Shown: in pieces, positions 5,213 to 64,000 of the stretch
Position numbering within the stretch: the stretch's first letter is position 1
How the letters are laid out: each line of letters opens with the position of its first letter
Notes under the pieces: generated by a model
The model's input: the letters and a program-made list of their open reading frames with translations, nothing else
Database searches by the model: none
Told to the model about the DNA's origin: nothing
Source: Escherichia coli
Lineage (GTDB): Bacteria; Pseudomonadota; Gammaproteobacteria; Enterobacterales; Enterobacteriaceae
Length of the DNA: 64,000 nucleotides
Direction: 5' to 3' (one strand)
NCBI RefSeq assembly: GCF_030013595.1
Contig: NZ_CP122768.1
Program-made: the position numbers and the translations under genes

Positions 5213-6037
5213 ATGCAAAACATTACTCAGTCCTGGTTTGTCCAGGGAATGATTAAAGCCACCACCGACGCCTGGCTGAAAGGCTGGGACGAGCGCAACG
5301 GCGGCAACCTGACGCTACGCCTGGATGACGCCGATATCGCGCTTTATCACGACAACTTCCACCCACAACCGCGCTATATTCCGCTCAGTCAACCCATGCC
5401 TTTACTGGCAAATACGCCGTTTATTGTCACCGGCTCCGGCAAATTCTTCCGTAACGTCCAGCTCGATCCTGCAGCTAACTTAGGCGTCGTAAAAGTCGAC
5501 AGCGATGGCGCGGGCTACCATATTCTCTGGGGGTTAACCAACGAAGCCGTCCCCACTTCCGAACTTCCGGCGCACTTCCTTTCCCACTGCGAGCGTATTA
5601 AAGCCACCAACGGTAAAGATCGGGTGATCATGCACTGCCATGCCACCAACCTGATCGCCCTTACCTACGTACTGGAAAACGACACCGCGGTCTTCACTCG
5701 CCAACTGTGGGAAGGCAGCACCGAATGTCTGGTAGTGTTCCCGGATGGCGTCGGCATTTTGCCGTGGATGGTGCCCGGCACGGACGAAATCGGCCAGGCG
5801 ACCGCACAGGAAATGCAAAAACATTCGCTGGTGTTGTGGCCCTTCCACGGCGTCTTCGGCAGCGGTCCGACACTGGATGAAACATTCGGTTTAATCGACA
5901 CCGCAGAAAAATCAGCACAAGTATTAGTGAAGGTTTATTCGATGGGCGGCATGAAACAGACCATCAGCCGTGAAGAGCTGATAGCGCTCGGCCAGCGTTT
6001 CGGCGTTACACCACTCGCCAGTGCGCTGGCGCTGTAA
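5213..6037 (+). CDS. rhaD: Rhamnulose-1-phosphate aldolase
   Basis: ORF 5123..6037; start set at ATG 5213 ([10 protein letters not shown]) giving 274 aa. Confidence 0.95.
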
Positions 6038-12989: not shown

Positions 12990-13588
12990 ACTGTGTCGGA
13001 TGCGCCGCATCCGACACTGCATTTATCACCAAAATCAAAAATGTTTAACGCAAGCTATTATAGTCATCGACCATTTCGTTGTACTCGCGTAACGCTCGCG
13101 GAAATGAGTCGTCGACCATCCAGCTGGTGTTTGCATCCTGAAGTTGCTCTTTATCCCAGTCAGAGTACGGAACTTTATCTCTGACGCGGCGAACATATTT
13201 TTTAGCCTCGAGTTGATACTGGTCTGCCGAATTAATGAACGAGAAATTCATACCGCCTTTATCCGCTTCTTTGGCCTGCGCCACCAGCGTTTCCAGTTCA
13301 GAGACTTTCTTCATTGCCGCATCAACATCAAACTTCTCTTGCGAAATCAGGTTATTAATTTGTTTCGCTGAAATCATGACTGCCAGAGAGTAGTAGTGGA
13401 ATGTTTTCCCTTCTCTTTGTTCAATATTTTTCAGTTCCGCAAGCTGGCGCTTATCGTTAATTTCCTGAATCGCCGCATGATAAGATTCTGCTACAGGTTC
13501 AAAGGCTTCAAGATTTTTTAAGAATGTCTGGTGGGTGATGCTGCCAACTTACTGATTTAGTGTATGATGGTGTTTTTGAGGTGCTCCA

Positions 13589-13864
13589 GTGGCTTCTGTT
13601 TCTATCAGCTGTCCCTCCTGTTCAGCTACTGACGGGGTGGTGCGTAACGGCAAAAGCACCGCCGGACATCAGCGCTATCTCTGCTCTCACTGCCGTAAAA
13701 CATGGCAACTACAGTTCACTTACGCCGCCTCTCAGCCCGGTACGCACCAGAAAATCATTGATATGGCCATGAATGGCGTCGGATGTCGCGCCAGTGCACG
13801 CATTATTGGCGTTGGCCTCAACACGATTTTCCGCCACTTAAAAAACTCAGGCCGCAGTCGGTAA
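13589..13864 (+). CDS. insA: IS1 protein InsA
   Basis: 91-aa [43 protein letters not shown]... (zinc-finger-like). Confidence 0.9.
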
Positions 13865-14286
13865 CCTCGCGCATACAACCGGGCAGTGATGTGATTGTCT
13901 GCGCTGAAATGGACGAACAGTGGGGCTACGTCGGTGCTAAATCACGTCAGCGCTGGCTGTTTTACGCGTATGACAGGATGCGGAGGACGGTTGTGGCGCA
14001 CGTCTTCGGTGAACGCACTCTGGCCACACTGGAGCGTCTTCTGAGCCTGCTGTCGGCCTTTGAGGTCGTGGTATGGATGACGGATGGCTGGCCGCTGTAT
14101 GAATCACGCCTGAAGGGAAAGCTGCACGTTATCAGCAAGCGTTATACTCAGCGCATTGAGCGGCATAACCTGAATCTGAGACAACATCTGGCAAGGCTGG
14201 GACGGAAGTCACTGTCGTTCTCAAAATCGGTGGAGCTGCATGACAAGGTCATCGGGCATTATCTGAACATAAAACACTATCAGTAA
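13783..14286 (+). CDS. insB: IS1 InsB frame (InsAB' transposase made by -1 frameshift at the A6C site near 13840..13846)
   Basis: 167-aa ORF in the -1 frame overlapping insA; slippery ttaaaaaactc motif present. Confidence 0.85.
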
Positions 14287-14987
14287 GTTGGAGTCATTAC
14301 CTGTCTGGTGCAGCGTTTTCCCTTTCGCAAACGCATCGTCTTTATAATTTTCCTGGGTGTAATATTTATCCATTTCGTTAATGGTATTACCCAACGCCAC
14401 GGCAGCATCAATATAACTCACCGCCACGCCATCAATAGGTTGCAGCGCAGGCGTTAACGCCACGACTCTTTTTATTCCTTTTTGACACTCAGAGAGATTG
14501 GATTCACTAATGCCGTAAATGCCATAAACAAGGCTCTCTTTACCTGTTGGCCCCTGTTTAAAATCTTTCAGCCAGTCAGCGTAACGCGCCAGACTGTTCT
14601 GTACAGGAATCTGTAACTTGTTGTAGCACTTGATATAGACATCCATTTTTTCGTCGAAAACCGCTTGTTCATCGACCACCGGTTGCGCAGGCGTTTCAGG
14701 TTTAACTTCTGCTTTTGCAACGGGAGCTTCAGTAGGTTTCGCTTCAGGAGCTGGTGCGGCAGGTTGACTATTGGCAGGCGGGGGCGTTTCTGTTTCGGCT
14801 TTTTTATCATCACAACCCGTGAGACCGAGGGCCATGATGGCGACTATAATAGCGGAAGATAATAAATTCCTTTTCATTTAATTGCCTTATAAATATATAG
14901 ATAAGAGAGTGAACATAATAAATGAAAAAAGAAAACGCCACTACACGCGTTTTGTTTATAAATAAAATAATAAAATTCACGAAATGA

Positions 14988-15029: not shown

Positions 15030-15863
15030 TTAATTGCTCAAACGCTGCGGATGGGTATAAACCGTTGCCCGGCCCGGTTTACAAAAGCCCACCAGCGTCA
15101 AATTACAGCGTTCAGCCACTTCTACAGCAAGTGTGGTCGCGGCAGACACCGCAAACAAAATCTCTACGCCACACATCGCTGACTTTTGCACCATTTCATA
15201 ACTGGCACGGCTGGAAACCAGCACCGCACCTTGCTGCCAGCTTTCCCCTTCTTGTGACCGGCGGCCTAACAGTTTGTCCAGCGCCACATGGCGACCCACG
15301 TCTTCATGCCCGCCGACCAGTTCGCCAGATGGCAACATCCAGGCAGCGGCGTGAGTACAACCAGTCAGTTGCCCCACTGGCTGAAAATCGTTGAGATGAC
15401 GTAATGCATCATCCAGTTTGTTGAGATCAAACGTCTGGGTGAACGGTAGCGGCTGCACCGGTTTTCCGATGTCATTAAGTTGCTCCACGCCGCATACGCC
15501 ACAGCCCGTACGTCCCGCCAGCGCCCGGCGGCGCTCCTTCAACCCCATAAAGCGGCGGCTGGAAAGCTCAATTTGTACTTCAAGACCATTACAGGAAGGA
15601 ACGACATCCATGCCGAAGATATCGCGCGGACTTTCTATTATCCCCTCGGAAAGCGAAAAACCGAGCGCAAAGTACTCAAGGTCTTTGGGCGACGCCATCA
15701 TCACCACATGCGAAATGCCGTTGTAGACCAGCGCAACGGGAACTTCTTCCGCGACCTCATCTAACCGTGGGTGTTGTAAATCATCACGCCGCCATAACTC
15801 AATTTGACGAACACTCGTGATATTTGTCACATTTTCGATTTCTTTTTGCTGTGTTTTTTTCAC
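15030..15863 (-). CDS. fdhD: Formate dehydrogenase accessory sulfurtransferase FdhD
   Basis: 277-aa ORF divergent from fdoG. Confidence 0.9.
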
Positions 15864-16056
15864 TTTCTCTTAACCAGATAAGAACACACACACCAACATT
15901 ATGGTATTCTGTTACAAACCCTTCCTGGATGGAGGGAAATTGAGCCAATTCTGGACCTTTGCGGCCCCTTCCGCAAAGAAAAATAACTCCCACTCCCTGC
16001 ACACGCAGCAAGCGAATGTAAATGGGACGTGACAATGTCGAAACAAGGAGCAATCC

Positions 16057-19000
16057 ATGCAGGTCAGCAGAAGGCAGTTCTTTAAGATCTGCGCTGGCGG
16101 TATGGCAGGCACCACGGCAGCGGCACTGGGTTTTGCCCCCAGCGTAGCGCTCGCGGAAACCCGGCAGTATAAACTGCTGCGCACCCGCGAAACCCGTAAT
16201 ACCTGCACCTATTGTTCCGTAGGCTGTGGGCTGTTGATGTACAGCCTCGGTGACGGAGCAAAAAACGCCAAAGCATCTATCTTCCATATCGAAGGTGACC
16301 CGGATCACCCGGTCAACCGCGGAGCACTTTGTCCGAAAGGCGCTGGCCTGGTGGATTTCATCCACTCCGAAAGCCGTCTGAAGTTTCCGGAATACCGTGC
16401 GCCAGGTTCTGATAAATGGCAGCAAATCAGTTGGGAAGAGGCGTTTGATCGCATCGCCAAACTGATGAAAGAAGACCGCGATGCTAACTACATTGCGCAA
16501 AACGCCGAAGGCGTGACTGTTAACCGCTGGCTCTCCACCGGGATGCTGTGTGCTTCCGCGTCGAGTAACGAAACCGGCTATTTAACGCAAAAATTCTCCC
16601 GCGCGCTGGGTATGCTCGCGGTTGACAACCAGGCGCGTGTCTGACACGGACCAACGGTAGCAAGTCTTGCTCCAACATTTGGTCGCGGTGCGATGACCAA
16701 CCACTGGGTCGACATCAAGAACGCCAACCTCGTCGTGGTGATGGGCGGTAACGCCGCTGAAGCTCACCCGGTCGGGTTCCGCTGGGCGATGGAAGCCAAA
16801 ATTCACAACGGCGCGAAGCTGATTGTGATCGATCCTCGCTTTACGCGTACGGCGGCGGTAGCTGACTACTATGCCCCTATTCGTTCCGGTACTGACATTG
16901 CTTTCCTGTCAGGCGTATTGCTGTACCTGCTGAACAATGAAAAATTCAACCGCGAATACACCGAAGCCTATACCAACGCCAGCCTTATCGTGCGTGAGGA
17001 TTACGGCTTTGAAGATGGCCTGTTCACCGGCTACGACGCGGAAAAACGCAAGTACGATAAATCCTCCTGGACTTACGAACTGGACGAAAACGGCTTCGCC
17101 AAACGCGATACCACGCTGCAACATCCGCGCTGCGTGTGGAACTTGCTGAAACAGCACGTTTCCCGCTACACGCCGGATGTGGTTGAAAACATCTGTGGTA
17201 CGCCAAAAGACGCGTTCCTGAAAGTCTGCGAATACATCGCCGAAACCAGTGCACACGATAAAACTGCCTCGTTCCTGTATGCCCTCGGCTGGACGCAACA
17301 CTCCGTTGGTGCGCAGAACATTCGTACGATGGCGATGATCCAGCTGCTGCTCGGCAATATGGGGATGGCAGGCGGCGGCGTTAACGCCCTGCGCGGTCAC
17401 TCCAATATTCAGGGACTGACGGACCTGGGGCTGCTGTCGCAGAGCCTGCCGGGTTACATGACGCTGCCGAGCGAGAAGCAGACCGATCTGCAAACCTACC
17501 TTACCGCCAACACGCCAAAACCGCTGCTGGAAGGCCAGGTAAACTACTGGGGCAACTACCCGAAATTCTTCGTCTCCATGATGAAGGCCTTCTTTGGTGA
17601 TAAAGCGACGGCGGAAAATAGCTGGGGCTTTGACTGGTTGCCGAAGTGGGATAAAGGCTACGACGTCCTGCAATACTTCGAGATGATGAAAGAAGGCAAG
17701 GTCAATGGCTATATCTGCCAGGGCTTTAACCCGGTTGCCTCATTCCCGAACAAAAACAAAGTGATCGGTTGTCTGTCGAAACTGAAGTTCCTCGTCACCA
17801 TCGACCCGCTGAACACTGAAACCTCTAACTTCTGGCAGAACCACGGTGAGCTGAACGAAGTTGACTCGTCGAAGATCCAGACCGAAGTGTTCCGTCTGCC
17901 ATCGACCTGCTTCGCGGAAGAGAACGGTTCTATCGTTAACTCCGGTCGCTGGTTGCAGTGGCACTGGAAAGGTGCGGACGCCCCGGGAATTGCGCTGACT
18001 GATGGCGAGATCCTCTCCGGTATCTTCCTGCGCTTGCGCAAGATGTATGCCGAACAGGGTGGCGCGAACCCGGACCAGGTGCTGAACATGACCTGGAACT
18101 ACGCCATTCCGCATGAGCCGAAGTCGGAAGAAGTAGCGATGGAGAGCAACGGTAAGGCGCTGGCCGATATTACCGATCCGGCAACCGGTGCGGTTATCGT
18201 CAAGAAAGGCCAACAACTTAGCTCGTTCGCCCAACTGCGCGATGACGGTACGACCTCCTGTGGCTGCTGGATTTTCGCCGGTAGCTGGACGCCAGAAGGT
18301 AACCAGATGGCGCGTCGTGATAACGCCGATCCGTCTGGCCTCGGTAACACGCTGGGCTGGGCATGGGCATGGCCGCTTAACCGCCGCATTCTGTATAACC
18401 GCGCCTCCGCAGATCCGCAGGGTAACCCGTGGGATCCGAAGCGTCAGTTGCTGAAATGGGACGGCACTAAGTGGACCGGCTGGGATATTCCGGACTACAG
18501 CGCAGCACCTCCGGGTAGCGGCGTCGGGCCGTTTATCATGCAGCAGGAAGGCATGGGGCGTCTGTTTGCCCTCGATAAGATGGCGGAAGGTCCGTTCCCG
18601 GAACACTACGAGCCGTTTGAAACGCCGCTGGGAACTAACCCGCTGCATCCAAACGTTATCTCGAACCCGGCTGCACGTATCTTTAAAGACGACGCCGAAG
18701 CATTGGGTAAAGCCGATAAGTTCCCGTATGTCGGAACCACCTATCGTCTGACCGAGCACTTCCACTACTGGACCAAACACGCGCTGTTGAACGCGATTTT
18801 GCAACCAGAGCAGTTTGTGGAAATCGGTGAGTCGCTGGCGAATAAACTTGGCATTGCCCAGGGCGATACCGTGAAAGTCTCCTCCAACCGTGGCTATATC
18901 AAAGCCAAAGCGGTGGTGACCAAACGTATTCGCACGCTGAAAGCGAACGGCAAAGATATCGATACCATCGGTATTCCGATTCACTGGGGCTATGAAGGTG

Positions 19001-19107
19001 TTGCGAAAAAAGGCTTTATTGCCAATACGTTAACGCCATTCGTTGGTGATGCGAACACGCAGACGCCGGAGTTTAAGTCCTTCCTTGTGAATGTGGAAAA
19101 GGTGTAA
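16057..19107 (+). CDS. fdoG: Formate dehydrogenase-O major subunit (selenoprotein; in-frame UGA at 16642..16644 read as Sec)
   Basis: ORFs 16057..16644 and 16693..19107 are one frame split only by TGA; Tat signal (RRQFFK); molybdopterin oxidoreductase body; total 1016 aa. Confidence 0.95.
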
Positions 19108-19119
19108 CGGAGACGACAT

Positions 19120-20022
19120 ATGGCTTATCAATCTCAAGATATCATTCGTCGTTCCGCGACTAACGGTCTGACCCCCGCGCCTCAGGCGCGGGACTTCCAG
19201 GAAGAAGTGGCGAAACTCATCGACGTCACCACCTGTATCGGCTGTAAAGCCTGTCAGGTGGCGTGTTCAGAGTGGAACGACATTCGCGATACCGTCGGCA
19301 ATAACATTGGGGTGTACGACAACCCCAATGATTTAAGTGCCAAATCGTGGACGGTGATGCGCTTCTCGGAAGTGGAACAGAACGACAAACTGGAATGGCT
19401 GATCCGCAAAGACGGCTGTATGCACTGTTCCGATCCAGGCTGCCTGAAAGCGTGCCCGGCGGAAGGAGCAATTATTCAGTATGCCAACGGTATCGTCGAC
19501 TTCCAGTCCGAGCAGTGCATCGGCTGCGGTTATTGCATTGCGGGCTGTCCGTTCGACATTCCGCGCCTCAACCCGGAAGACAACCGCGTCTACAAATGTA
19601 CGCTGTGCGTTGACCGCGTGGTGGTTGGGCAAGAACCGGCCTGCGTGAAGACCTGCCCAACGGGCGCGATTCACTTCGGTACGAAAGAGTCGATGAAAAC
19701 GCTGGCGAGCGAGCGCGTGGCGGAGCTGAAAACTCGCGGTTACGACAATGCGGGTCTGTACGATCCGGCAGGCGTTGGCGGTACACACGTTATGTACGTG
19801 CTGCACCATGCTGACAAGCCAAATCTGTATCATGGCTTGCCGGAGAACCCGGAAATCAGCGAAACCGTGAAATTCTGGAAAGGCATCTGGAAACCGCTCG
19901 CAGCTGTTGGCTTTGCGGCTACCTTCGCGGCCAGTATCTTCCACTACGTGGGTGTCGGTCCGAACCGTGCGGATGAGGAAGAGAATAATCTGCACGAAGA
20001 GAAAGACGAGGAGCGCAAATGA
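19120..20022 (+). CDS. fdoH: Formate dehydrogenase-O iron-sulfur subunit
   Basis: 300 aa with multiple CxxCxxCxxxCP ferredoxin motifs. Confidence 0.95.
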
Positions 20023-20654
20023 AACGACGTGACACCATCGTGCGCTACACCGCGCCGGAACGTATCAACCACTGGATCACCGCCTTCTGCTTCATCCTGG
20101 CGGCGGTGAGCGGGCTTGGCTTTTTGTTCCCGTCCTTCAACTGGTTGATGCAAATCATGGGCACACCGCAGCTGGCGCGAATTCTGCACCCGTTTGTCGG
20201 CGTGGTTATGTTTGCCTCGTTCATCATCATGTTTTTCCGTTACTGGCATCACAACCTAATCAATCGGGATGATATCTTTTGGGCGAAGAATATTCGTAAG
20301 ATCGTCGTCAACGAGGAAGTAGGTGACACCGGGCGTTATAACTTCGGTCAGAAATGCGTTTTCTGGGCGGCGATTATTTTCCTGGTTCTGCTGCTGGTGA
20401 GCGGCGTGATTATCTGGCGTCCTTATTTTGCGCCTGCTTTCTCAATCCCGGTGATCCGATTCGCGTTAATGCTGCATTCATTTGCCGCAGTGGCGTTAAT
20501 TGTGGTTATCATGGTGCATATCTACGCCGCCCTTTGGGTGAAAGGCACGATTACCGCCATGGTGGAAGGATGGGTTACCAGCGCCTGGGCGAAGAAACAT
20601 CACCCGCGCTGGTACCGTGAGGTCCGCAAGACAACGGAAAAGAAAGCTGAATGA
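20019..20654 (+). CDS. fdoI: Formate dehydrogenase-O cytochrome b556 subunit
   Basis: 211-aa membrane protein overlapping fdoH stop. Confidence 0.95.
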
Positions 20655-21580
20655 GTATTCGCATAATCCCGCAAGATGAGCTGGGTTCGAGCGAGAAACG
20701 TACGGCGGATATGATTCCGCCGTTATTGTTCCCTCGGCTCAAGAATTTATACAACCGCCGCGCCGAGCGTCTGCGCGAGCTGGCAGAAAATAATCCGCTG
20801 GGTGATTACCTGCGCTTTGCTGCGCTTATCGCCCACGCCCAGGAAGTGGTGCTGTACGACCATCCGCTGGAGATGGATCTGACTGCACGCATTAAAGAAG
20901 CCAGCGCACAGGGCAAGCCCCCGCTGGATATTCACGTTCTGCCGCGTGATAAGCACTGGCAAAAGCTGCTGATGGCGCTGATTGCTGAGCTGAAACCTGA
21001 AATGAGCGGCCCGGCGCTGGCAGTGATTGAGAATCTGGAGAAGGCATCGACCCAGGAGCTGGAAGATATGGCCAGCGCACTGTTTGCCTCTGATTTCTCG
21101 TCCGTCAGCAGTGATAAAGCGCCGTTTATCTGGGCTGCGCTGTCGCTCTACTGGGCGCAGATGGCTAATCTGATCCCCGGCAAAGCCCGCGCTGAATACG
21201 GCGAACAACGTCAATATTGCCCGGTATGTGGCTCTATGCCGGTGTCCAGCATGGTGCAAATTGGCACCACTCAGGGGCTGCGTTACCTGCACTGCAACCT
21301 GTGTGAAACCGAATGGCACGTGGTGCGCGTAAAATGCAGCAACTGCGAGCAGAGCGGCAAACTGCATTACTGGTCGCTGGATGACGAACAGGCCGCGATT
21401 AAAGCCGAAAGCTGCGATGACTGCGGCACTTACCTGAAGATTCTTTATCAGGAAAAAGAACCGAAAGTTGAAGCCGTGGCAGATGACCTCGCCTCTCTGG
21501 TACTGGACGCGCGAATGGAGCAAGAAGGCTACGCCCGCAGTTCCATCAACCCGTTCCTGTTCCCGGGTGAAGGGGAGTAA
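20651..21580 (+). CDS. fdhE: Formate dehydrogenase formation protein FdhE
   Basis: 309 aa with CxxC pairs; overlaps fdoI stop. Confidence 0.95.
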
Positions 21581-23135: not shown

Positions 23136-24950
23136 TCAGACTCCCATCCCTACGGTATACGAGCTAGATTCATGAATGAAATCGACATTTTTAAAAAACG
23201 AATCTTGTAAAACATCCGTGTTGATATTACCTTGCAACCCAACATTAAATTTGTTAGAGAGATGAAGAACTCGAATATCAAAAAGGTCTTTTAACATCAT
23301 TAATTCTTTGGCTGTTAATGAATCGCAACTAAAATATCCCTGTTGATCAAAAAGCTTTTCTATTTCTCTACCATCGGCGAGGCGTTTTTCAAGGAGTGTT
23401 TGCAACATCGAGTTGCCAAGGACAATGGATATCGTGCGATCTTTCGCAGATTTACACCCCATCACAACGGCAACATTCGTATCCCCCTCAGGAGTTTCAT
23501 TTATCGCCGTCGCTAAAATGGTGGTCAAACACGCAAACGGAACTGTATTTCTTTCGTGATTTAATTTATCTACCAGTTCATTCCATTTATCAAAAGCCGG
23601 GCTATATTTGTTGCGTACAGAAATATCCGACTGGTTAAACAATTCAGCCATGCGATTTTTTATCATCTCGATATCCGGCGAACCAGAAAGACTTTGCGCA
23701 TAATACGGTCCTGATGATGTTGCATACATTAAAGCCGAGCCCACACCTGTCGCCATGATGGGCGCAGCTACGGTTTTGGCAAGGGCGACGCTGCGATGGC
23801 TATGCGCTTCACAGGCTAAAGGAACATATTCCACTGACTGCGGTAATTCCTTACATGCCTCCCTCATCATTGCGGTATGCTTTACAAACAACGGTTTTTC
23901 ACTGCCCAAAAAAACCTTCTGCTTAATTGCACTAAGAAAACGTAAATCCAAAATGATTGTTTTTGGTTTATTATTTTTTGGCACATTTCCTATTATCCCG
24001 CTAAGAACCTTCCTTGCTGCATGGAGATTTTTTTGCACAGCACATAACACAATTGACGAAGCCTTCTCTACTGCGTTATTGATTTTAATTTTAAAATCTG
24101 CATGATATACGTTGACGGGCAATGCAAGTATATCTTCCCCTACATCTTTGGCTGAGTATTTATTTGTGATCGACGGTCGTGAATCCACGAGAAAACTTAG
24201 CTGCAAATTATGCTCTATATTACCAGCTGTTTTTGTAGTGTGATTAAACATAGAGATGCCACCTCTCATTCTTTCACACATATCCTCAACTTTATCACTT
24301 CGTTCTTGTGGCAATTTGGCTTTAACGTTAATTTGATGATTTTTACCCGTGCATTCCTTAACAACAAGAGGAATGTTATCTAAAGTGCCATACAGGCTAA
24401 TAACGTCACCAGGATTTTTATCATGTAAGTAAGTTTGATTAATACTCGAAGCATTCACAAAGAGGTCAATATTATAACTGTTTATAACTTCACCTACATC
24501 AAATGTGTAGTGCTTACTCTGGAGGCTGCCATCCTTGTTTAATTGTATATCAATCAAGATATCCCCGGACTTTGTCACCATATCTTTGCCATAAACCATT
24601 TGCATAGCCATTTCGAGGAGGTTTTTATCTAACTGATTGCGGGCGTTGAGTAAGCGACTACCAAATAATTTATATACTGTTCCCGTCATTGCCAGCGCTG
24701 CGCTTTCTGGTACTTTGCGTTTCCACAGTGAGGTTTCTTTATTTTTAAACAGGTCATATTTATTATTACTCGACAACCCGAGTTTAAGTTCGTTAACACA
24801 ATCGCACAGTTGCTCCTCACCTTCCATTTTAAGGCGATGTGAAAAATCATTTAATAGCGTTTGCTTCGGTGATTCATTGCTCATTAGTTGTTTTTCTAAA
24901 TTAACAATAGAATAACTTTCTTGTTTAATGAGATTAATATTGGCAACCAT
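23136..24950 (-). CDS. Hypothetical 604-aa protein with CX5R phosphatase P-loop (CKSAKDRT); candidate IpgD/SopB-like phosphoinositide phosphatase
   Basis: Intact ORF; Shine-Dalgarno AAGGAGG 6 nt upstream of ATG; AT-rich by eye; motif VVMGCKSAKDRT encoded at 23433..23456, about 105 residues from the C-terminus. Confidence 0.8.
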   Translation of the reverse strand: MVANINLIKQESYSIVNLEKQLMSNESPKQTLLNDFSHRLKMEGEEQLCDCVNELKLGLSSNNKYDLFKNKETSLWKRKVPESAALAMTGTVYKLFGSRLLNARNQLDKNLLEMAMQMVYGKDMVTKSGDILIDIQLNKDGSLQSKHYTFDVGEVINSYNIDLFVNASSINQTYLHDKNPGDVISLYGTLDNIPLVVKECTGKNHQINVKAKLPQERSDKVEDMCERMRGGISMFNHTTKTAGNIEHNLQLSFLVDSRPSITNKYSAKDVGEDILALPVNVYHADFKIKINNAVEKASSIVLCAVQKNLHAARKVLSGIIGNVPKNNKPKTIILDLRFLSAIKQKVFLGSEKPLFVKHTAMMREACKELPQSVEYVPLACEAHSHRSVALAKTVAAPIMATGVGSALMYATSSGPYYAQSLSGSPDIEMIKNRMAELFNQSDISVRNKYSPAFDKWNELVDKLNHERNTVPFACLTTILATAINETPEGDTNVAVVMGCKSAKDRTISIVLGNSMLQTLLEKRLADGREIEKLFDQQGYFSCDSLTAKELMMLKDLFDIRVLHLSNKFNVGLQGNINTDVLQDSFFKNVDFIHESSSYTVGMGV

Positions 24951-42114: not shown

Positions 42115-42265
42115 AACTTTGCCTCAGGCATTAGAAATAGCGCGTTATTGTACACGGATTAATCGCACTACAAAACAGGATCACAAACATCCTCCGCAAA
42201 CAAGTATTGCAGAGTCCCTTTGTGATCGCTTTCACGGAGCATAAAAAGGGTTATCCAAAGGTCAT

Positions 42266-42316
42266 TGCACCAATATGGTGCTTAATGTTTCCATTGAAGC
42301 ACTATATTGGTGCAAC
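42266..42316. promoter_or_regulatory. NtrC enhancer sites upstream of glnA
   Basis: tgcaccaatatggtgc and gcactatattggtgca match the TGCACC-N5-GGTGCA consensus. Confidence 0.7.
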
Positions 42317-49023: not shown

Positions 49024-49086
49024 AATGGTTCGTCTTTTAGCCGTTTTATTCAGTATAGATTTGCGGCGGAATCTAACAGAAAGCAA

Positions 49087-49334
49087 GCAAAGAAAAAAGG
49101 CGACAGATTACTCTGTCGCCTTTTTTCCTGACTCATAACCCTTAACGGGTCTTACAATCCTTGCAGGCCGCCAACACACCCTGTTTTTCCATTAGCCGGA
49201 ACAATCCGTGTTGATTCCATTTCCGTTTAATTACGTCTCCGGACGTTTGTCTTCCTGACAATCCTCTGTCTTCGCCTCCTGGCGCTCCTGACCCTCATCC
49301 TGAGTCATTGTTCCTGTTAGCGTCCTCGCTCTAT
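49087..49334 (-). ncRNA. csrC: CsrC small RNA (CsrA-sequestering)
   Basis: Minus strand carries multiple AGGA/GGA motifs and a terminator hairpin (ggcgacagagtaatctgtcgcc + T-run); matches recalled csrC in the yihI-engB intergenic region. Confidence 0.8.
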
Positions 49335-50360: not shown

Positions 50361-50471
50361 AATAAAAAACGCCCCAGTCATTACTGACTGGGGCGGCTAA
50401 AATATTCAGCCAAATCCGATTACGTGAAGTAAAAGGTCTGAAAGATAGAACATCTTACCTCTGTACCCTAC
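50361..50471 (-). ncRNA. spf: Spot 42 small RNA
   Basis: Reverse complement matches recalled Spot 42 from gtagggtacagaggtaagatg to ccccagtcagtaatgactggggcgtttttt terminator. Confidence 0.9.
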
Positions 50472-50618
50472 GCGACTAACTTTACTCTTTTTTGTTCAGT
50501 TCAGAAAGCATTTTTTGTAATTTTTTTTCAGTTGTTGCATAGGAATTTCTAATAGCCATCACAAAACGTGACAGCTTATGTTGCTTACTTACGAAAAAAG
50601 GGCATATTCAGGCGAATC

Positions 50619-58371: not shown

Positions 58372-58956
58372 GTGAATCTGATGACGACGATAACAGGCGT
58401 TGTGCTGGCGGGCGGTAAAGCCAGACGAATGGGCGGCGTAGATAAAGGATTGCTTGAATTAAACGGCAAACCATTATGGCAACATGTCGCTGACACGCTT
58501 ATGACGCAGCTCTCTCACGTCGTGGTTAATGCTAATCGTCATCAGGAAATCTATCAGGCAAGCGGTCTGAAAGTGGTTGAAGATTCACTGGCGGATTACC
58601 CAGGCCCTCTGGCAGGAATGCTTTCAGTAATGCAGCAGGAAGCGGGGGAGTGGTTTTTGTTTTGCCCATGCGATACGCCTTACATTCCCCCTGATTTAGC
58701 TGCCCGGCTTAATCATCAGCGCAAAGAGGCACCTGTCGTGTGGGTCCACGACGGTGAACGCGATCACCCGACTATTGCTCTGGTAAACCGCGCAATTGAG
58801 CCTTTATTACTGGAATATCTGCAAGCAGGAGAACGCCGGGTAATGGCATTTATGCGTCTGGCTGGCGGTCATGCGGTTGATTTCAGCGATAATAAAGATG
58901 CATTTATTAACGTGAATACGCCAGAGGAGCTTGCCCGATGGCAGGAAAAACGATGA
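58372..58956 (+). CDS. mobA: Molybdenum cofactor guanylyltransferase
   Basis: 194 aa ([11 protein letters not shown] motif). Confidence 0.95.
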
Positions 58957-59465
58957 TACCGTTACTCGCCTTTGCCGCGTGGAGCGGCACTGGAAAAACT
59001 ACGCTTTTGAAAAAACTGATCCCGGCATTATGCGCCAGAGGGATCCGTCCAGGGCTGATTAAGCATACGCACCATGATATGGATGTTGATAAGCCAGGCA
59101 AAGATAGCTATGAGCTGCGCAAGGCTGGCGCGGCACAAACCATCGTTGCCAGCCAGCAACGATGGGCCTTGATGACGGAAACACCAGACGAAGAAGAGCT
59201 GGATCTACATTTTCTCGCAAGTCGAATGGATACCTCAAAGCTGGATTTGATTCTGGTCGAAGGGTTTAAGCATGAAGAGATCACAAAGATTGTGCTGTTT
59301 CGCGATGGAGCCGGACATCGACCTGAAGAATTAGTGATAGATAGGCATGTTATTGCTGTAGCCAGTGATGTGCCGCTTAATCTTGATGTCGCATTACTGG
59401 ATATTAATGATGTTGAGGGGCTGGCTGATTTTGTGGTGGAGTGGATGCAAAAGCAGAACGGATAA
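58938..59465 (+). CDS. mobB: Molybdopterin-guanine dinucleotide biosynthesis adapter MobB
   Basis: 175 aa with P-loop GTGKTT; overlaps mobA end. Confidence 0.9.
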
Positions 59466-59563: not shown

Positions 59564-59683
59564 ATGCCTGGCAGTTCCCTACTCTCGCATGGGGAGACCC
59601 CACACTACCATCGGCGCTACGGCGTTTCACTTCTGAGTTCGGCATGGGGTCAGGTGGGACCACCGCGCTAAGGCCGCCAGGCA
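59564..59683 (-). rRNA. rrf: 5S ribosomal RNA
   Basis: Reverse complement matches E. coli 5S over 120 nt with one apparent substitution near the 5' end. Confidence 0.95.
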
Positions 59684-59775
59684 AATTCTGTTTCATCAGA
59701 CCGCTTCTGCGTTCTGAGTTAATCTGTATCAGGCTGAAAATCTTCTCTCATCCGCCAAAACATCTTCGGCGTTGT

Positions 59776-62680
<2,905 letters not shown>

Positions 62681-62873
62681 TCACAACCCGAAGATGTTTC
62701 TTTCGATTCATCATCGTGTTGCGAAAATTTGAGAGACTCACGAACAACTTTCGTTGTTCAGTGTTTCAATTTTCAGCTTGATCCAGATTTTTAAAGAGCA
62801 AATATCTCAAACATCACCCGAAGATGAGTTTTGAGATATTAAGGCAGGTGACTTTCACTCACAAACCAGCAAG

Positions 62874-62949
62874 TGGCGTCCCCTAGGGGATTCGAACCCC
62901 TGTTACCGCCGTGAAAGGGCGGTGTCCTGGGCCTCTAGACGAAGGGGAC
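62874..62949 (-). tRNA. tRNA-Glu (UUC) in the 16S-23S spacer
   Basis: Reverse complement GTCCCCTTCGTCTAGAGGCCCAGGACACCGCCCTTTCACGGCGGTAACAGGGGTTCGAATCCCCTAGGGGACGCCA, 76 nt. Confidence 0.95.
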
Positions 62950-63034
62950 GTATCAGTCTGCTTCGCAAGACGCCTTGCTTTTCACTTTCTATCAGACAAT
63001 CTGTGTGAGCACTGCAAAGTACGCTTCTTTAAGG

Positions 63035-64000
<966 letters not shown>

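What the first reader, a model, noticed from the sequence alone, without database searches (positions are those of the whole stretch)
16642..16692. In-frame UGA selenocysteine codon in fdoG splits the ORF track call
The ORF track reports two ORFs (16057..16644 and 16693..19107) that are one frame separated only by TGA at 16642..16644. This is the expected selenocysteine codon of formate dehydrogenase-O; the SECIS hairpin should lie in the roughly 40 nt downstream. It is known biology but a frequent annotation error, and it confirms the fdo operon is intact in this strain.
Basis: partly seen in the sequence, partly recalled or inferred. Interest (0 to 1): 0.15.

Follow-up and report, generated by a model that had tools for sequence, protein, structure and literature searches.

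The report
Selenocysteine UGA and SECIS in fdoG
The apparent stop codon that splits this E. coli gene is the well-known selenocysteine codon of formate dehydrogenase-O, followed by its recoding hairpin, so the finding is correct but ordinary textbook biology.

Summary
ORFs 16057-16644 and 16693-19107 (+) are one reading frame interrupted only by TGA at 16642-16644 (codon 196).

- The window is E. coli and the gene is fdoG: it sits in fdhD / fdoG-fdoH-fdoI-fdhE and is 98.6% identical to K-12 fdoG.
- Codon 196 aligns with the non-standard residue at position 196 of the solved FdnG structure 1KQF.
- Rfam's SECIS_3 model matches 16639-16697 end to end (84.3 bits, threshold 63).
- The apical hairpin 16656-16673 has the bulged U at +17 and unpaired G-U at +23/+24, in the same register as fdhF.
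- Of 116 homologues from diverse bacteria, 113 carry TGA and 3 a Cys codon.
- The apical helix is held by compensatory changes at synonymous sites (pair types GC/AU/CG/UA/GU/UG).
- In other Enterobacterales all 16 codons after the UGA are nucleotide-identical, while flanking synonymous codons match only 46-76% of the time.
- selA, selB, selC and selD are in the closest genome and in at least 5424 of 5426 complete E. coli genomes.

Hairpin stability alone is not distinctive (z = -0.76). RefSeq already annotates the gene as one CDS. Nothing here is new, so interest is low.

Noticed in passing: an IS1 insertion in yiiG, and a pseudo-CDS called over the CsrC sRNA gene in the closest RefSeq genome.

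The parts
16057..19107 (+). fdoG, catalytic (alpha) subunit of formate dehydrogenase-O: one 1016-codon CDS with selenocysteine at codon 196
   Evidence: Single-frame translation. TIGR01553 scores 1574 bits against a cut-off of 814 over residues 2-1015. 1KQF_A FdnG aligns end to end. 98.56% nt identity to K-12 fdoG. RefSeq annotates one CDS at the same coordinates in the closest genome.
16057..16155 (+). Twin-arginine (Tat) signal peptide region of FdoG (MQVSRRQFFK...; the end point is approximate)
   Evidence: The S-R-R-x-F-F-K motif is visible in the translation. The cleavage site is inferred and was not tested.
16642..16644 (+). In-frame UGA, the selenocysteine codon (Sec196)
   Evidence: It aligns with X196 of 1KQF_A. 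TGA occupies the homologous position in 113 of 116 homologues and Cys codons in 3.
16645..16687 (+). SECIS stem-loop (the whole paired region of the Rfam SECIS_3 model; the model match spans 16639-16697)
   Evidence: RF01989 scores 84.3 bits against a gathering score of 63, E = 9e-20, model positions 1-59 of 59. 14 of 16 model pairs are standard in this sequence.
16656..16673 (+). Apical SECIS hairpin GGUAGCAAGUCUUGCUCC, the presumed SelB-binding part: bulged U at 16658 (+17), loop G-U at 16664-16665 (+23/+24)
   Evidence: The same hairpin appears in the MFE fold and in the Rfam structure. It is in the same register as K-12 fdhF. The apical five pairs are paired in 314 of 315 cells across 63 distinct sequences, with compensatory changes. 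The defining features are given in PMC8704476.
19120..20022 (+). fdoH, iron-sulfur (beta) subunit
   Evidence: TIGR01582 scores 478.7 bits against a cut-off of 334.7. RefSeq annotation.
20019..20654 (+). fdoI, cytochrome b556 (gamma) subunit
   Evidence: The FDH-O-specific model NF007924 scores 453.3 bits (cut-off 341). The FDH-N gamma model NF007558 scores 243.6 bits, below its cut-off of 339.
20651..21580 (+). fdhE, formate dehydrogenase accessory protein
   Evidence: NF002925 scores 604 bits against a cut-off of 426 over residues 1-308 of 309. RefSeq annotation.
15030..15863 (-). fdhD, accessory sulfurtransferase, transcribed divergently from fdoG
   Evidence: TIGR00129 scores 340 bits against a cut-off of 140.9. 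RefSeq annotation.

Best explanation
TGA at 16642-16644 is the selenocysteine codon (Sec196) of E. coli fdoG, the catalytic subunit of the respiratory formate dehydrogenase-O.

Proposed mechanism (inferred from established biology, not tested here): the mRNA just 3' of the codon (16645-16687) folds into a bacterial SECIS hairpin. Its apical part (16656-16673) presents a bulged U at +17 and unpaired G-U at +23/+24. The specialised elongation factor SelB, carrying GTP and Sec-tRNA(Sec), binds this hairpin. When the ribosome places UGA in its A site, SelB delivers selenocysteine in competition with release factor 2, and translation continues to the true stop at 19105-19107. The product is a 1016-residue Tat-exported molybdo-selenoprotein.

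Shown here: the codon, the frame, gene identity, the match to the curated SECIS model, covariation of the helix, and the presence of the sel genes in the closest genome. Inferred: SelB binding and actual Sec insertion in this strain.
For: Frame and codon.

Gene identity and context:
- Searches place the gene in fdhD / fdoG-fdoH-fdoI-fdhE.
- One search gives TIGR01553 at 1574 bits and an FdoI-specific model above cut-off.
- One search gives 98.56% identity to K-12 fdoG.

Active-site homology: X196 of FdnG 1KQF aligns with codon 196 and is followed by the conserved His.

SECIS:
- Rfam RF01989 scores 84.3 bits against 63, full length.
- U17, G23 and U24 are in the same register as fdhF, matching the published defining features (PMC8704476).

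Extra nucleotide constraint:
- fdoG and fdnG are 75% identical in nucleotides, but their longest identical run is 71 nt and starts 3 nt before the TGA; the next longest is 37 nt.
- In other Enterobacterales 16 of 16 comparable codons after the UGA are identical, against 0.46-0.76 in the flanks.

Comparative evidence:
- TGA in 113 of 116 homologues.
- The SECIS_3 structure is 76.4% paired against 29-51% when slid, with a covariation score of 0.202 against a shuffle mean of 0.108 (0 of 500 shuffles reach it).
- Wobble-wobble pairs 21-33 (GC38, AU10, CG8, UA3, GU2, UG2) and 24-30 (AU35, CG28) are 100% complementary in 63 sequences.

Machinery:
- tRNA-Sec, selA, selB and selD are annotated in the closest genome.
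- They are present in 5424-5425 of 5426 E. coli genomes.

Literature:
- All three E. coli Fdh enzymes are selenoproteins, and the Fdh-N/O activity band is lost in a selC deletion mutant (PMC3160892).
- fdhF, fdoG and fdnG are the three internal Sec TGAs of E. coli (PMC11903333).
Against: - The thermodynamic stability of 16642-16692 is unremarkable: -14.6 kcal/mol, z = -0.76, and 41 of 200 shuffles fold as well.
- The lower stem is imperfect here. 7 of 9 model pairs are standard, and the MFE fold prefers a register shifted by one. It is also poorly conserved across lineages.
- The sel genes lie outside the window, and the exact source genome was not found in the collection.
- No experiment on this strain is available.
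- The chi-square values ignore phylogenetic relatedness.
Confidence: 0.97

Rival explanations
1. The TGA is a genuine nonsense mutation. fdoG would be a pseudogene in this strain, producing a 195-residue fragment.
For: The codon is a standard stop, and a mechanical ORF caller splits the gene there. The hairpin is not unusually stable by energy alone.
Against: - The same TGA is in K-12 fdoG and fdnG and in 113 of 116 homologues across phyla.
- The 71-mer around it is present in 5425 of 5426 E. coli genomes.
- The 820 codons downstream are intact, with one amino-acid difference from K-12.
- A curated SECIS model matches above threshold.
Confidence: 0.01
2. The UGA is bypassed by another recoding route that does not involve selenocysteine, such as near-cognate read-through (Trp or Cys insertion) or a programmed frameshift.
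For: Not directly excluded by sequence analysis. Low-level near-cognate decoding of UGA is known in E. coli from established knowledge; it was not tested here.
Against: - The reading frame is unchanged across the codon, so no frameshift is needed.
- The downstream element matches the SelB-type SECIS in sequence, register and covariation.
- The aligned residue in the solved paralogue is the non-standard residue of a selenocysteine enzyme.
- The Fdh-N/O activity band is lost in a selC deletion mutant (PMC3160892).
Confidence: 0.01
3. The extreme nucleotide identity around the TGA reflects gene conversion between the paralogues fdoG and fdnG, not selection on an RNA structure. This rivals one line of evidence, not the Sec reading itself.
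For: fdoG and fdnG share a 71-nt identical run in a 75%-identical background. A conversion tract would look like this.
Against: - The identical 48 nt recur in 19 loci from other genera, including Yersinia, Photorhabdus, Providencia, Citrobacter and Enterobacter, where flanking synonymous sites have diverged to 0.46-0.76 identity.
- In more distant lineages the arms differ but stay complementary, which conversion does not explain.
Confidence: 0.03
4. The TGA is a sequencing or assembly error.
For: None specific.
Against: The sequence is identical in thousands of independent assemblies.
Confidence: 0.003

Closest known systems
E. coli K-12 fdoG (b3894), Sec196 and its SECIS
   Same: 98.56% nucleotide identity over 3051 nt with one amino-acid difference. 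TGA is at codon 196 in both. The sequence from -9 to +60 around the UGA is identical. The neighbours fdhD, fdoH and fdoI are the same.
   Different: 44 scattered nucleotide differences, none in the SECIS; the nearest is a synonymous T/C change at gene nt 567. In this window the nearby gene yiiG carries an IS1 insertion.
E. coli fdnG (FDH-N alpha; structure 1KQF) and Rfam RF01989 SECIS_3
   Same: The SECIS is identical from 3 nt before the UGA for 71 nt. Sec is at residue 196 in both. The alpha subunit is 77% identical in protein. The Rfam model matches at full length.
   Different: It is a paralogue at another locus (fdnGHI, K-12 1.547 Mb) with different neighbours. The gamma subunit in this window matches the FDH-O model and not the FDH-N model. 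PGAP nevertheless labels this gene 'fdnG'.
E. coli fdhF (FDH-H) SECIS, the experimentally dissected prototype
   Same: The UGA is followed by CACGG. The apical hairpin starts at G15-G16, has a bulged U at +17, and has loop G23-U24 at the same distances from the UGA.
   Different: - The Sec codon is at residue 140 of a 715-residue cytoplasmic enzyme.
- The apical stem is UGCA/UGCA with a 4-nt loop GGUC, against AGCAA/UUGCU with the loop GUC here. U18-A29 against A18-U30 is a compensatory swap.
- The Rfam SECIS_2 model, whose consensus resembles the fdhF sequence, scores only 28.1 bits here against a threshold of 70.
Deltaproteobacterial-type periplasmic FdhA SECIS (homologues with ...AALAESFGRG)
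   Same: The TGA is at the homologous codon and is followed by a hairpin inside the ORF.
   Different: The loop bases at +23/+24 are C-U. The predicted hairpin sits further 3' (GGCUCUGGCAGAGUC). The SECIS_3 pairing is mostly not met in these 26 sequences.

Membership tests
Bacterial SECIS element (Rfam RF01989 SECIS_3, FdnG/FdoG type) | Lies immediately 3' of an in-frame UGA, inside the coding sequence | tested here: met
   UGA is at 16642-16644 and the model's paired region is 16645-16687 in the same ORF. The definition is taken from PMC8704476 and PMC11881835.
Bacterial SECIS element (Rfam RF01989 SECIS_3, FdnG/FdoG type) | Scores at or above the family's curated gathering threshold over the full model | tested here: met
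   84.3 bits against 63, model positions 1-59 of 59, E = 9e-20. It is also recovered in the gathering-threshold scan of the window.
Bacterial SECIS element (Rfam RF01989 SECIS_3, FdnG/FdoG type) | Bulged U in the upper stem and adjacent unpaired G and U in the apical loop | tested here: met
   U at 16658 is unpaired between G15-G16 and A18. G16664 and U16665 are in the loop, both in the MFE fold and in the Rfam structure. The feature list comes from PMC8704476. 87 of 113 TGA homologues share it.
Bacterial SECIS element (Rfam RF01989 SECIS_3, FdnG/FdoG type) | Fixed spacing between the UGA and the apical hairpin: 11 nt, as in fdhF. The rule is recalled from Liu et al. 1998, which could not be read here. 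| tested here: met
   Nucleotides +4 to +14 (11 nt) separate the UGA from G15 in both this gene and K-12 fdhF. The primary paper is not held.
Bacterial SECIS element (Rfam RF01989 SECIS_3, FdnG/FdoG type) | Helix supported by compensatory base changes in homologues | tested here: met
   The apical helix is paired in 314 of 315 cells. Pair 21-33 has six pair types and pair 24-30 has two, all complementary. The whole-structure covariation score is 0.202, against a shuffle mean of 0.108 and at most 0.118 when slid. The lower stem is only weakly supported.
Bacterial SECIS element (Rfam RF01989 SECIS_3, FdnG/FdoG type) | Binds SelB and directs Sec insertion | not testable with these tools
   This needs binding or reporter assays. 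It rests on published work with the identical fdnG and the related fdhF hairpins (references).
FDH-O catalytic subunit FdoG (selenocysteine molybdopterin formate dehydrogenase, TIGR01553) | Full-length match above the curated cut-off | tested here: met
   1574 bits against 814.2, residues 2-1015 on profile positions 1-1009.
FDH-O catalytic subunit FdoG (selenocysteine molybdopterin formate dehydrogenase, TIGR01553) | The UGA codon aligns with the active-site selenocysteine of a solved homologue | tested here: met
   Codon 196 aligns with X196 of 1KQF_A within the motif ARV-X-HGPTV.
FDH-O catalytic subunit FdoG (selenocysteine molybdopterin formate dehydrogenase, TIGR01553) | FDH-O and not FDH-N: an fdoGHI operon flanked by fdhD and fdhE, with an FdoI-type gamma subunit | tested here: met
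   The gene order is fdhD(-), fdoG, fdoH, fdoI, fdhE. NF007924 (FdoI) scores 453 bits, above its cut-off of 341. NF007558 (FdnI) scores 243.6, below its cut-off of 339. The flanking rule comes from PMC3160892.
FDH-O catalytic subunit FdoG (selenocysteine molybdopterin formate dehydrogenase, TIGR01553) | Twin-arginine signal and N-terminal [4Fe-4S] cysteine motif | tested here: met
   SRRQFFK is at residues 4-10, and cysteines are at 50, 53, 57 and 92. Their function is inferred from the FdnG structure family.
Host selenocysteine-decoding system (selA, selB, selC, selD) | All four genes present in the same genome | tested here: inconclusive
   None lies in the window. In the closest genome, NZ_CM149870.1 (about 99.95% identical over the window), tRNA-Sec is at 69204-69298, selA at 169186-170577, selB at 170574-172418 and selD at 2334094-2335137. 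They are present in 5424-5425 of 5426 complete E. coli genomes. The actual source genome was not found, so for this strain the result is a strong inference and not an observation.

The most novel reading that the evidence does not exclude
In Enterobacterales, all 48 nt after the UGA are invariant in both fdoG and fdnG. This includes unpaired positions and a lower stem that is imperfect here and, by recollection of published fdhF work, dispensable. That may reflect a constraint beyond the SelB-binding apical hairpin, such as a second RNA conformation or register, contacts with the ribosome or release factor 2 that tune Sec insertion against termination, or a regulatory interaction. My data show the excess conservation, the weak pairing of the lower stem and an alternative register in the MFE fold. 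They do not show what the extra constraint is.
Probability: 0.1. Interest if true: 0.3.

Novelty: already known. Interest (0 to 1): 0.06.

Why it matters
It matters only for annotation quality. The two mechanical ORFs must be merged into one selenoprotein gene with a translation exception at codon 196, and the gene should be named fdoG and not fdnG. It also indicates that this strain keeps a complete FDH-O locus. No open question is advanced. The comparative data collected here simply re-illustrate, with clean wobble-wobble covariation, how an RNA signal is embedded in a coding sequence.

Tried and rejected
- **Energy fold.** It is not discriminating by itself, so I relied on the covariance model and covariation.
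- **Lower stem.** The Rfam lower stem has two non-standard pairs in this sequence (A-C and A-G), the MFE fold picks a register shifted by one, and it is poorly conserved. I do not claim it as a functional helix.
- **Source genome.** I assumed at first that the window came from NZ_CM149870.1, which is 100% identical over 5.8 kb. The 64-kb comparison showed an extra IS1 and 18 mismatches. Searching with the IS1 junction found no complete genome with the same insertion.
- **Primary papers.** The papers on the minimal SECIS (PMC147357) and on the fdhF and fdnG hairpin structures (PMC1369378) are not held, and a text search for the 11-nt spacing rule found nothing. That rule is cited from memory, and I checked it only by comparing registers with fdhF.
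- **Thermometer hit.** The sub-threshold match to the FdoG-1 5'-UTR thermometer family scores 32 bits against 50. Only the ribosome-binding site and the start of the coding region align well, so I do not treat it as a member.
- **Gene conversion.** I considered it as the cause of the fdoG/fdnG identity and rejected it as the sole cause, because the same sequence is conserved across genera.
Full report
**1. Observation**

The window sequence shows TGA at 16642-16644. The mechanical ORF list contains 16057..16644 (+, 195 aa) and 16693..19107 (+, 804 aa). These are in the same frame, because 636 nt separate their starts. Translating 16057-19107 in one frame gives 1016 codons with one internal stop at codon 196, plus the terminal stop. 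The 48 nt between the TGA and the next ATG are open in frame. The second ORF is therefore an artefact of starting at the first internal Met.

**2. What the gene is**

The 5.8 kb around the site matches 5424 of 5426 complete E. coli genomes over at least 80% of its length.

- In the best-matching genome, NZ_CM149870.1, RefSeq annotates one 3051-nt CDS at the same coordinates.
- That CDS is flanked by fdhD (divergent) on one side and by fdoH, fdoI and fdhE on the other.
- PGAP names it 'fdnG / formate dehydrogenase-N subunit alpha', which is the name of the equivalog model TIGR01553.
- The context is nevertheless that of FDH-O. The literature describes fdoGHI as flanked by fdhD and fdhE (PMC3160892).
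- The gamma subunit here passes the FDH-O-specific model (453 bits, cut-off 341) and fails the FDH-N one (243.6 bits, cut-off 339).
- Against K-12 fdoG the gene is 98.56% identical, with one amino-acid difference and TGA at codon 196 in both.
- The protein aligns end to end with the solved FdnG structure 1KQF. The non-standard residue X196 there falls exactly on this gene's codon 196, in ARV-X-HGPTV.
- A twin-arginine motif (SRRQFFK) and the N-terminal cysteines at 50, 53, 57 and 92 are present.

**3. The SECIS**

Rfam's SECIS_3 model (RF01989) matches 16639-16697 over all 59 positions. It scores 84.3 bits against a gathering score of 63, and the hit reappears in a gathering-threshold scan of the window.

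The paired region is 16645-16687. The apical hairpin, 16656-16673, is GGUAGCAAGUCUUGCUCC. The minimum-free-energy fold reproduces this apical hairpin, with U at 16658 bulged and G16664-U16665 in the loop. A review lists these as the conserved features of bacterial SECIS elements: a bulged U in the upper stem and adjacent unpaired G and U in the loop (PMC8704476).

Counting the U of UGA as 1, the landmarks are U17, G23 and U24. In K-12 fdhF, the prototype, they sit at the same positions.

There is also negative evidence. The 51-nt segment is not more stable than shuffled sequences (z = -0.76). The lower stem has two non-standard pairs here, and the MFE fold prefers a shifted register.

**4. Is the hairpin more than coding sequence?**

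Three independent tests say yes.

(a) *Paralogues.* fdoG and K-12 fdnG are 75.1% identical in nucleotides and 77% in amino acids. Only 59% of their same-amino-acid codons are identical. Their longest identical run is still 71 nt, starts 3 nt before the TGA, and is followed in rank by a run of 37 nt.

(b) *Other genera.* I scanned one genome per species with a degenerate pattern for the downstream motif GRGAMTNHW, leaving wobble positions free.
- This gave 120 loci, of which 116 had a readable homologous codon: TGA in 113, TGT in 2 and TGC in 1.
- Nineteen loci carry the identical 48 nt. Those whose titles were listed come from Yersinia, Photorhabdus, Providencia, Citrobacter, Enterobacter, Superficieibacter and E. 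albertii.
- In most enterobacterial loci (flank amino-acid identity 0.75 or more) every comparable codon of the 16 after the UGA is identical to the window's; four loci have 12, 13 or 15 of 16. In the flanks the fraction is 0.46-0.76. Photorhabdus gives 16/16 against 76/166.
- By my own arithmetic, 0.46 to the 16th power is about 4e-6.

(c) *Covariation.* On 89 distinct 59-mers (alignment A1) the SECIS_3 structure is paired in 76.4% of cells, against 29-51% when the partners are slid. Its covariation score is 0.202 against a shuffle mean of 0.108, and no shuffle out of 500 reaches the observed value.

Among the 63 distinct sequences with the G-U loop:
- The five apical pairs are paired in 63, 62, 63, 63 and 63 of 63 sequences.
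- Pair 21-33 joins the wobble base of Val201 to the wobble base of Ala205. It occurs as GC (38), AU (10), CG (8), UA (3), GU (2) and UG (2).
- Pair 24-30 joins the wobble bases of Ala202 and Leu204. It occurs as AU (35) and CG (28).
- No sequence is non-complementary at either of these two pairs.
- Most wobble columns not predicted to pair are complementary in only 8 to 18 of 63 sequences. Two control pairs (21 with 30, and 15 with 33) reach 48 of 63, but neither reaches the full complementarity of the predicted pairs.
- The lower stem is much less conserved.

The three Cys-codon homologues lack the U17/G23-U24 signature and form 2, 2 and 5 of the 7 upper pairs. Three sequences is too few for more than an illustration.

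The chi-square values ignore phylogeny. The multiplicity of pair types is the sounder evidence.

**5. The decoding machinery**

None of the sel genes is in the window.
- Across the complete E. coli genomes, selA-selB is found in 5425 of 5426, selC in 5424 and selD in 5425.
- In the closest genome, tRNA-Sec is at 69204-69298, selA at 169186-170577, selB at 170574-172418 and selD at 2334094-2335137. All are annotated as intact.
- That genome is not the source of the window. The window carries an extra IS1 and 18 mismatches over 50 kb, and no complete genome shares the IS1 junction.
- For this strain, the presence of the sel genes is therefore a strong inference and not an observation.

**6. Mechanism**

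The established mechanism is as follows (PMC8704476, PMC11881835 and PMC3160892). SelB binds both Sec-tRNA(Sec) and the SECIS hairpin directly 3' of the UGA, and it delivers selenocysteine when the UGA reaches the ribosomal A site. All three E. coli formate dehydrogenases contain Sec, and the Fdh-N/O activity band is absent in a selC deletion mutant. fdhF, fdoG and fdnG are the only three internal Sec TGAs of E. coli (PMC11903333).

Shown here are the codon, the gene identity, the SECIS signature and covariation, and the machinery in close relatives. SelB binding and Sec insertion in this strain are inferred.

**7. Rivals**

- A true nonsense mutation, a sequencing error and read-through not involving Sec are each contradicted. 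The evidence against them is conservation of the TGA across thousands of E. coli assemblies and 113 of 116 distant homologues, the intact downstream 820 codons, and the SelB-type signal.
- Gene conversion between the paralogues could contribute to their 71-nt identity. It cannot explain the conservation across genera or the compensatory changes.

**8. Comparison and novelty**

This is the known fdoG Sec196 codon and its SECIS. The element is identical to those of K-12 fdoG and fdnG, and it is a member of Rfam RF01989. It differs from the fdhF SECIS in stem sequence and loop size but not in register. RefSeq already annotates the gene as a single CDS.

Nothing is new. The only residual curiosity is that Enterobacterales keep all 48 nt invariant, including positions that the apical hairpin does not need.

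**9. Verdict**

The finding is already known and its interest is very low.

Noticed in passing
window 13534-14301 (flanks 13525-13533 and 14302-14310): A 768-bp IS1 element is inserted in yiiG, the gene downstream of fdhD on the - strand. It has terminal inverted repeats GGTGATGCTGCCAACTTACTGAT / GGTAATGACTCCAACTTACTGAT and a 9-bp target duplication TGTCTGGTG. It is absent from the otherwise ~99.95%-identical genome NZ_CM149870.1, and no complete E. coli genome in the collection has the same junction.
   Followed up: partly
window 16057-19107; RefSeq genomes H1-H10: PGAP labels this gene 'fdnG: formate dehydrogenase-N subunit alpha' in RefSeq E. coli genomes, although it is the fdoG of the fdoGHI-fdhE operon. 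The name is inherited from the equivalog model TIGR01553.
   Followed up: yes
window 15888-16086 (+): A sub-threshold match to Rfam RF02778, 'FdoG-1 5' UTR thermometer' (32 bits against a gathering score of 50, E = 2.6e-5), covers the fdhD-fdoG intergenic region and the fdoG start. Only the ribosome-binding site and the first codons align with confidence, and the 5' half is poorly aligned.
   Followed up: no
window 49081-49334 (-): The CsrC sRNA gene is here (277.9 bits). In the closest RefSeq genome a 'hypothetical protein; frameshifted; internal stop' pseudo-CDS is annotated inside it (L003 17143-17309, about window 49143-49309). This is probably an annotation artefact over a non-coding RNA gene.
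   Followed up: partly
window 50363-50481 (-) and 42196-42303 (-): Spot 42 sRNA is at 50363-50481 (122.8 bits); the small protein SpfP is annotated within it in the closest genome. ES222 sRNA (133 bits) is at 42196-42303, in the typA-glnA intergenic region.
   Followed up: no
window about 23136-24950 (-): Between yiiE and fabY the closest genome annotates a transposase and a truncated hypothetical CDS ('partial in the middle of a contig'). This is a second mobile-element remnant close to the fdo locus.
   Followed up: no
loci L013, L014, L016, L021, L026 and about 20 others (alignment A1): 26 of the 89 distinct homologous sequences have C-U, or in two cases C-G, at +23/+24. Most are Desulfovibrio-type with the motif AALAESFGRG. 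Their predicted hairpin lies further 3' (GGCUCUGGCAGAGUC), so they form a different SECIS class at the same Sec codon.
   Followed up: partly
L031 (Shewanella xiamenensis), L043 (Dehalococcoidia MAG), L082 (proteobacterial MAG): These are the only three homologues with a Cys codon (TGT, TGT, TGC) in place of TGA. They lack the U17/G23-U24 signature and most apical pairs.
   Followed up: partly
window about 59566-64000 (-): The window ends in an rRNA operon (5S, 23S, tRNA-Glu and part of 16S), according to the annotation of the closest genome. mobA and mobB, which make the guanine dinucleotide form of the molybdenum cofactor that formate dehydrogenases use, lie just before it at about 58372-59465.
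   Followed up: no
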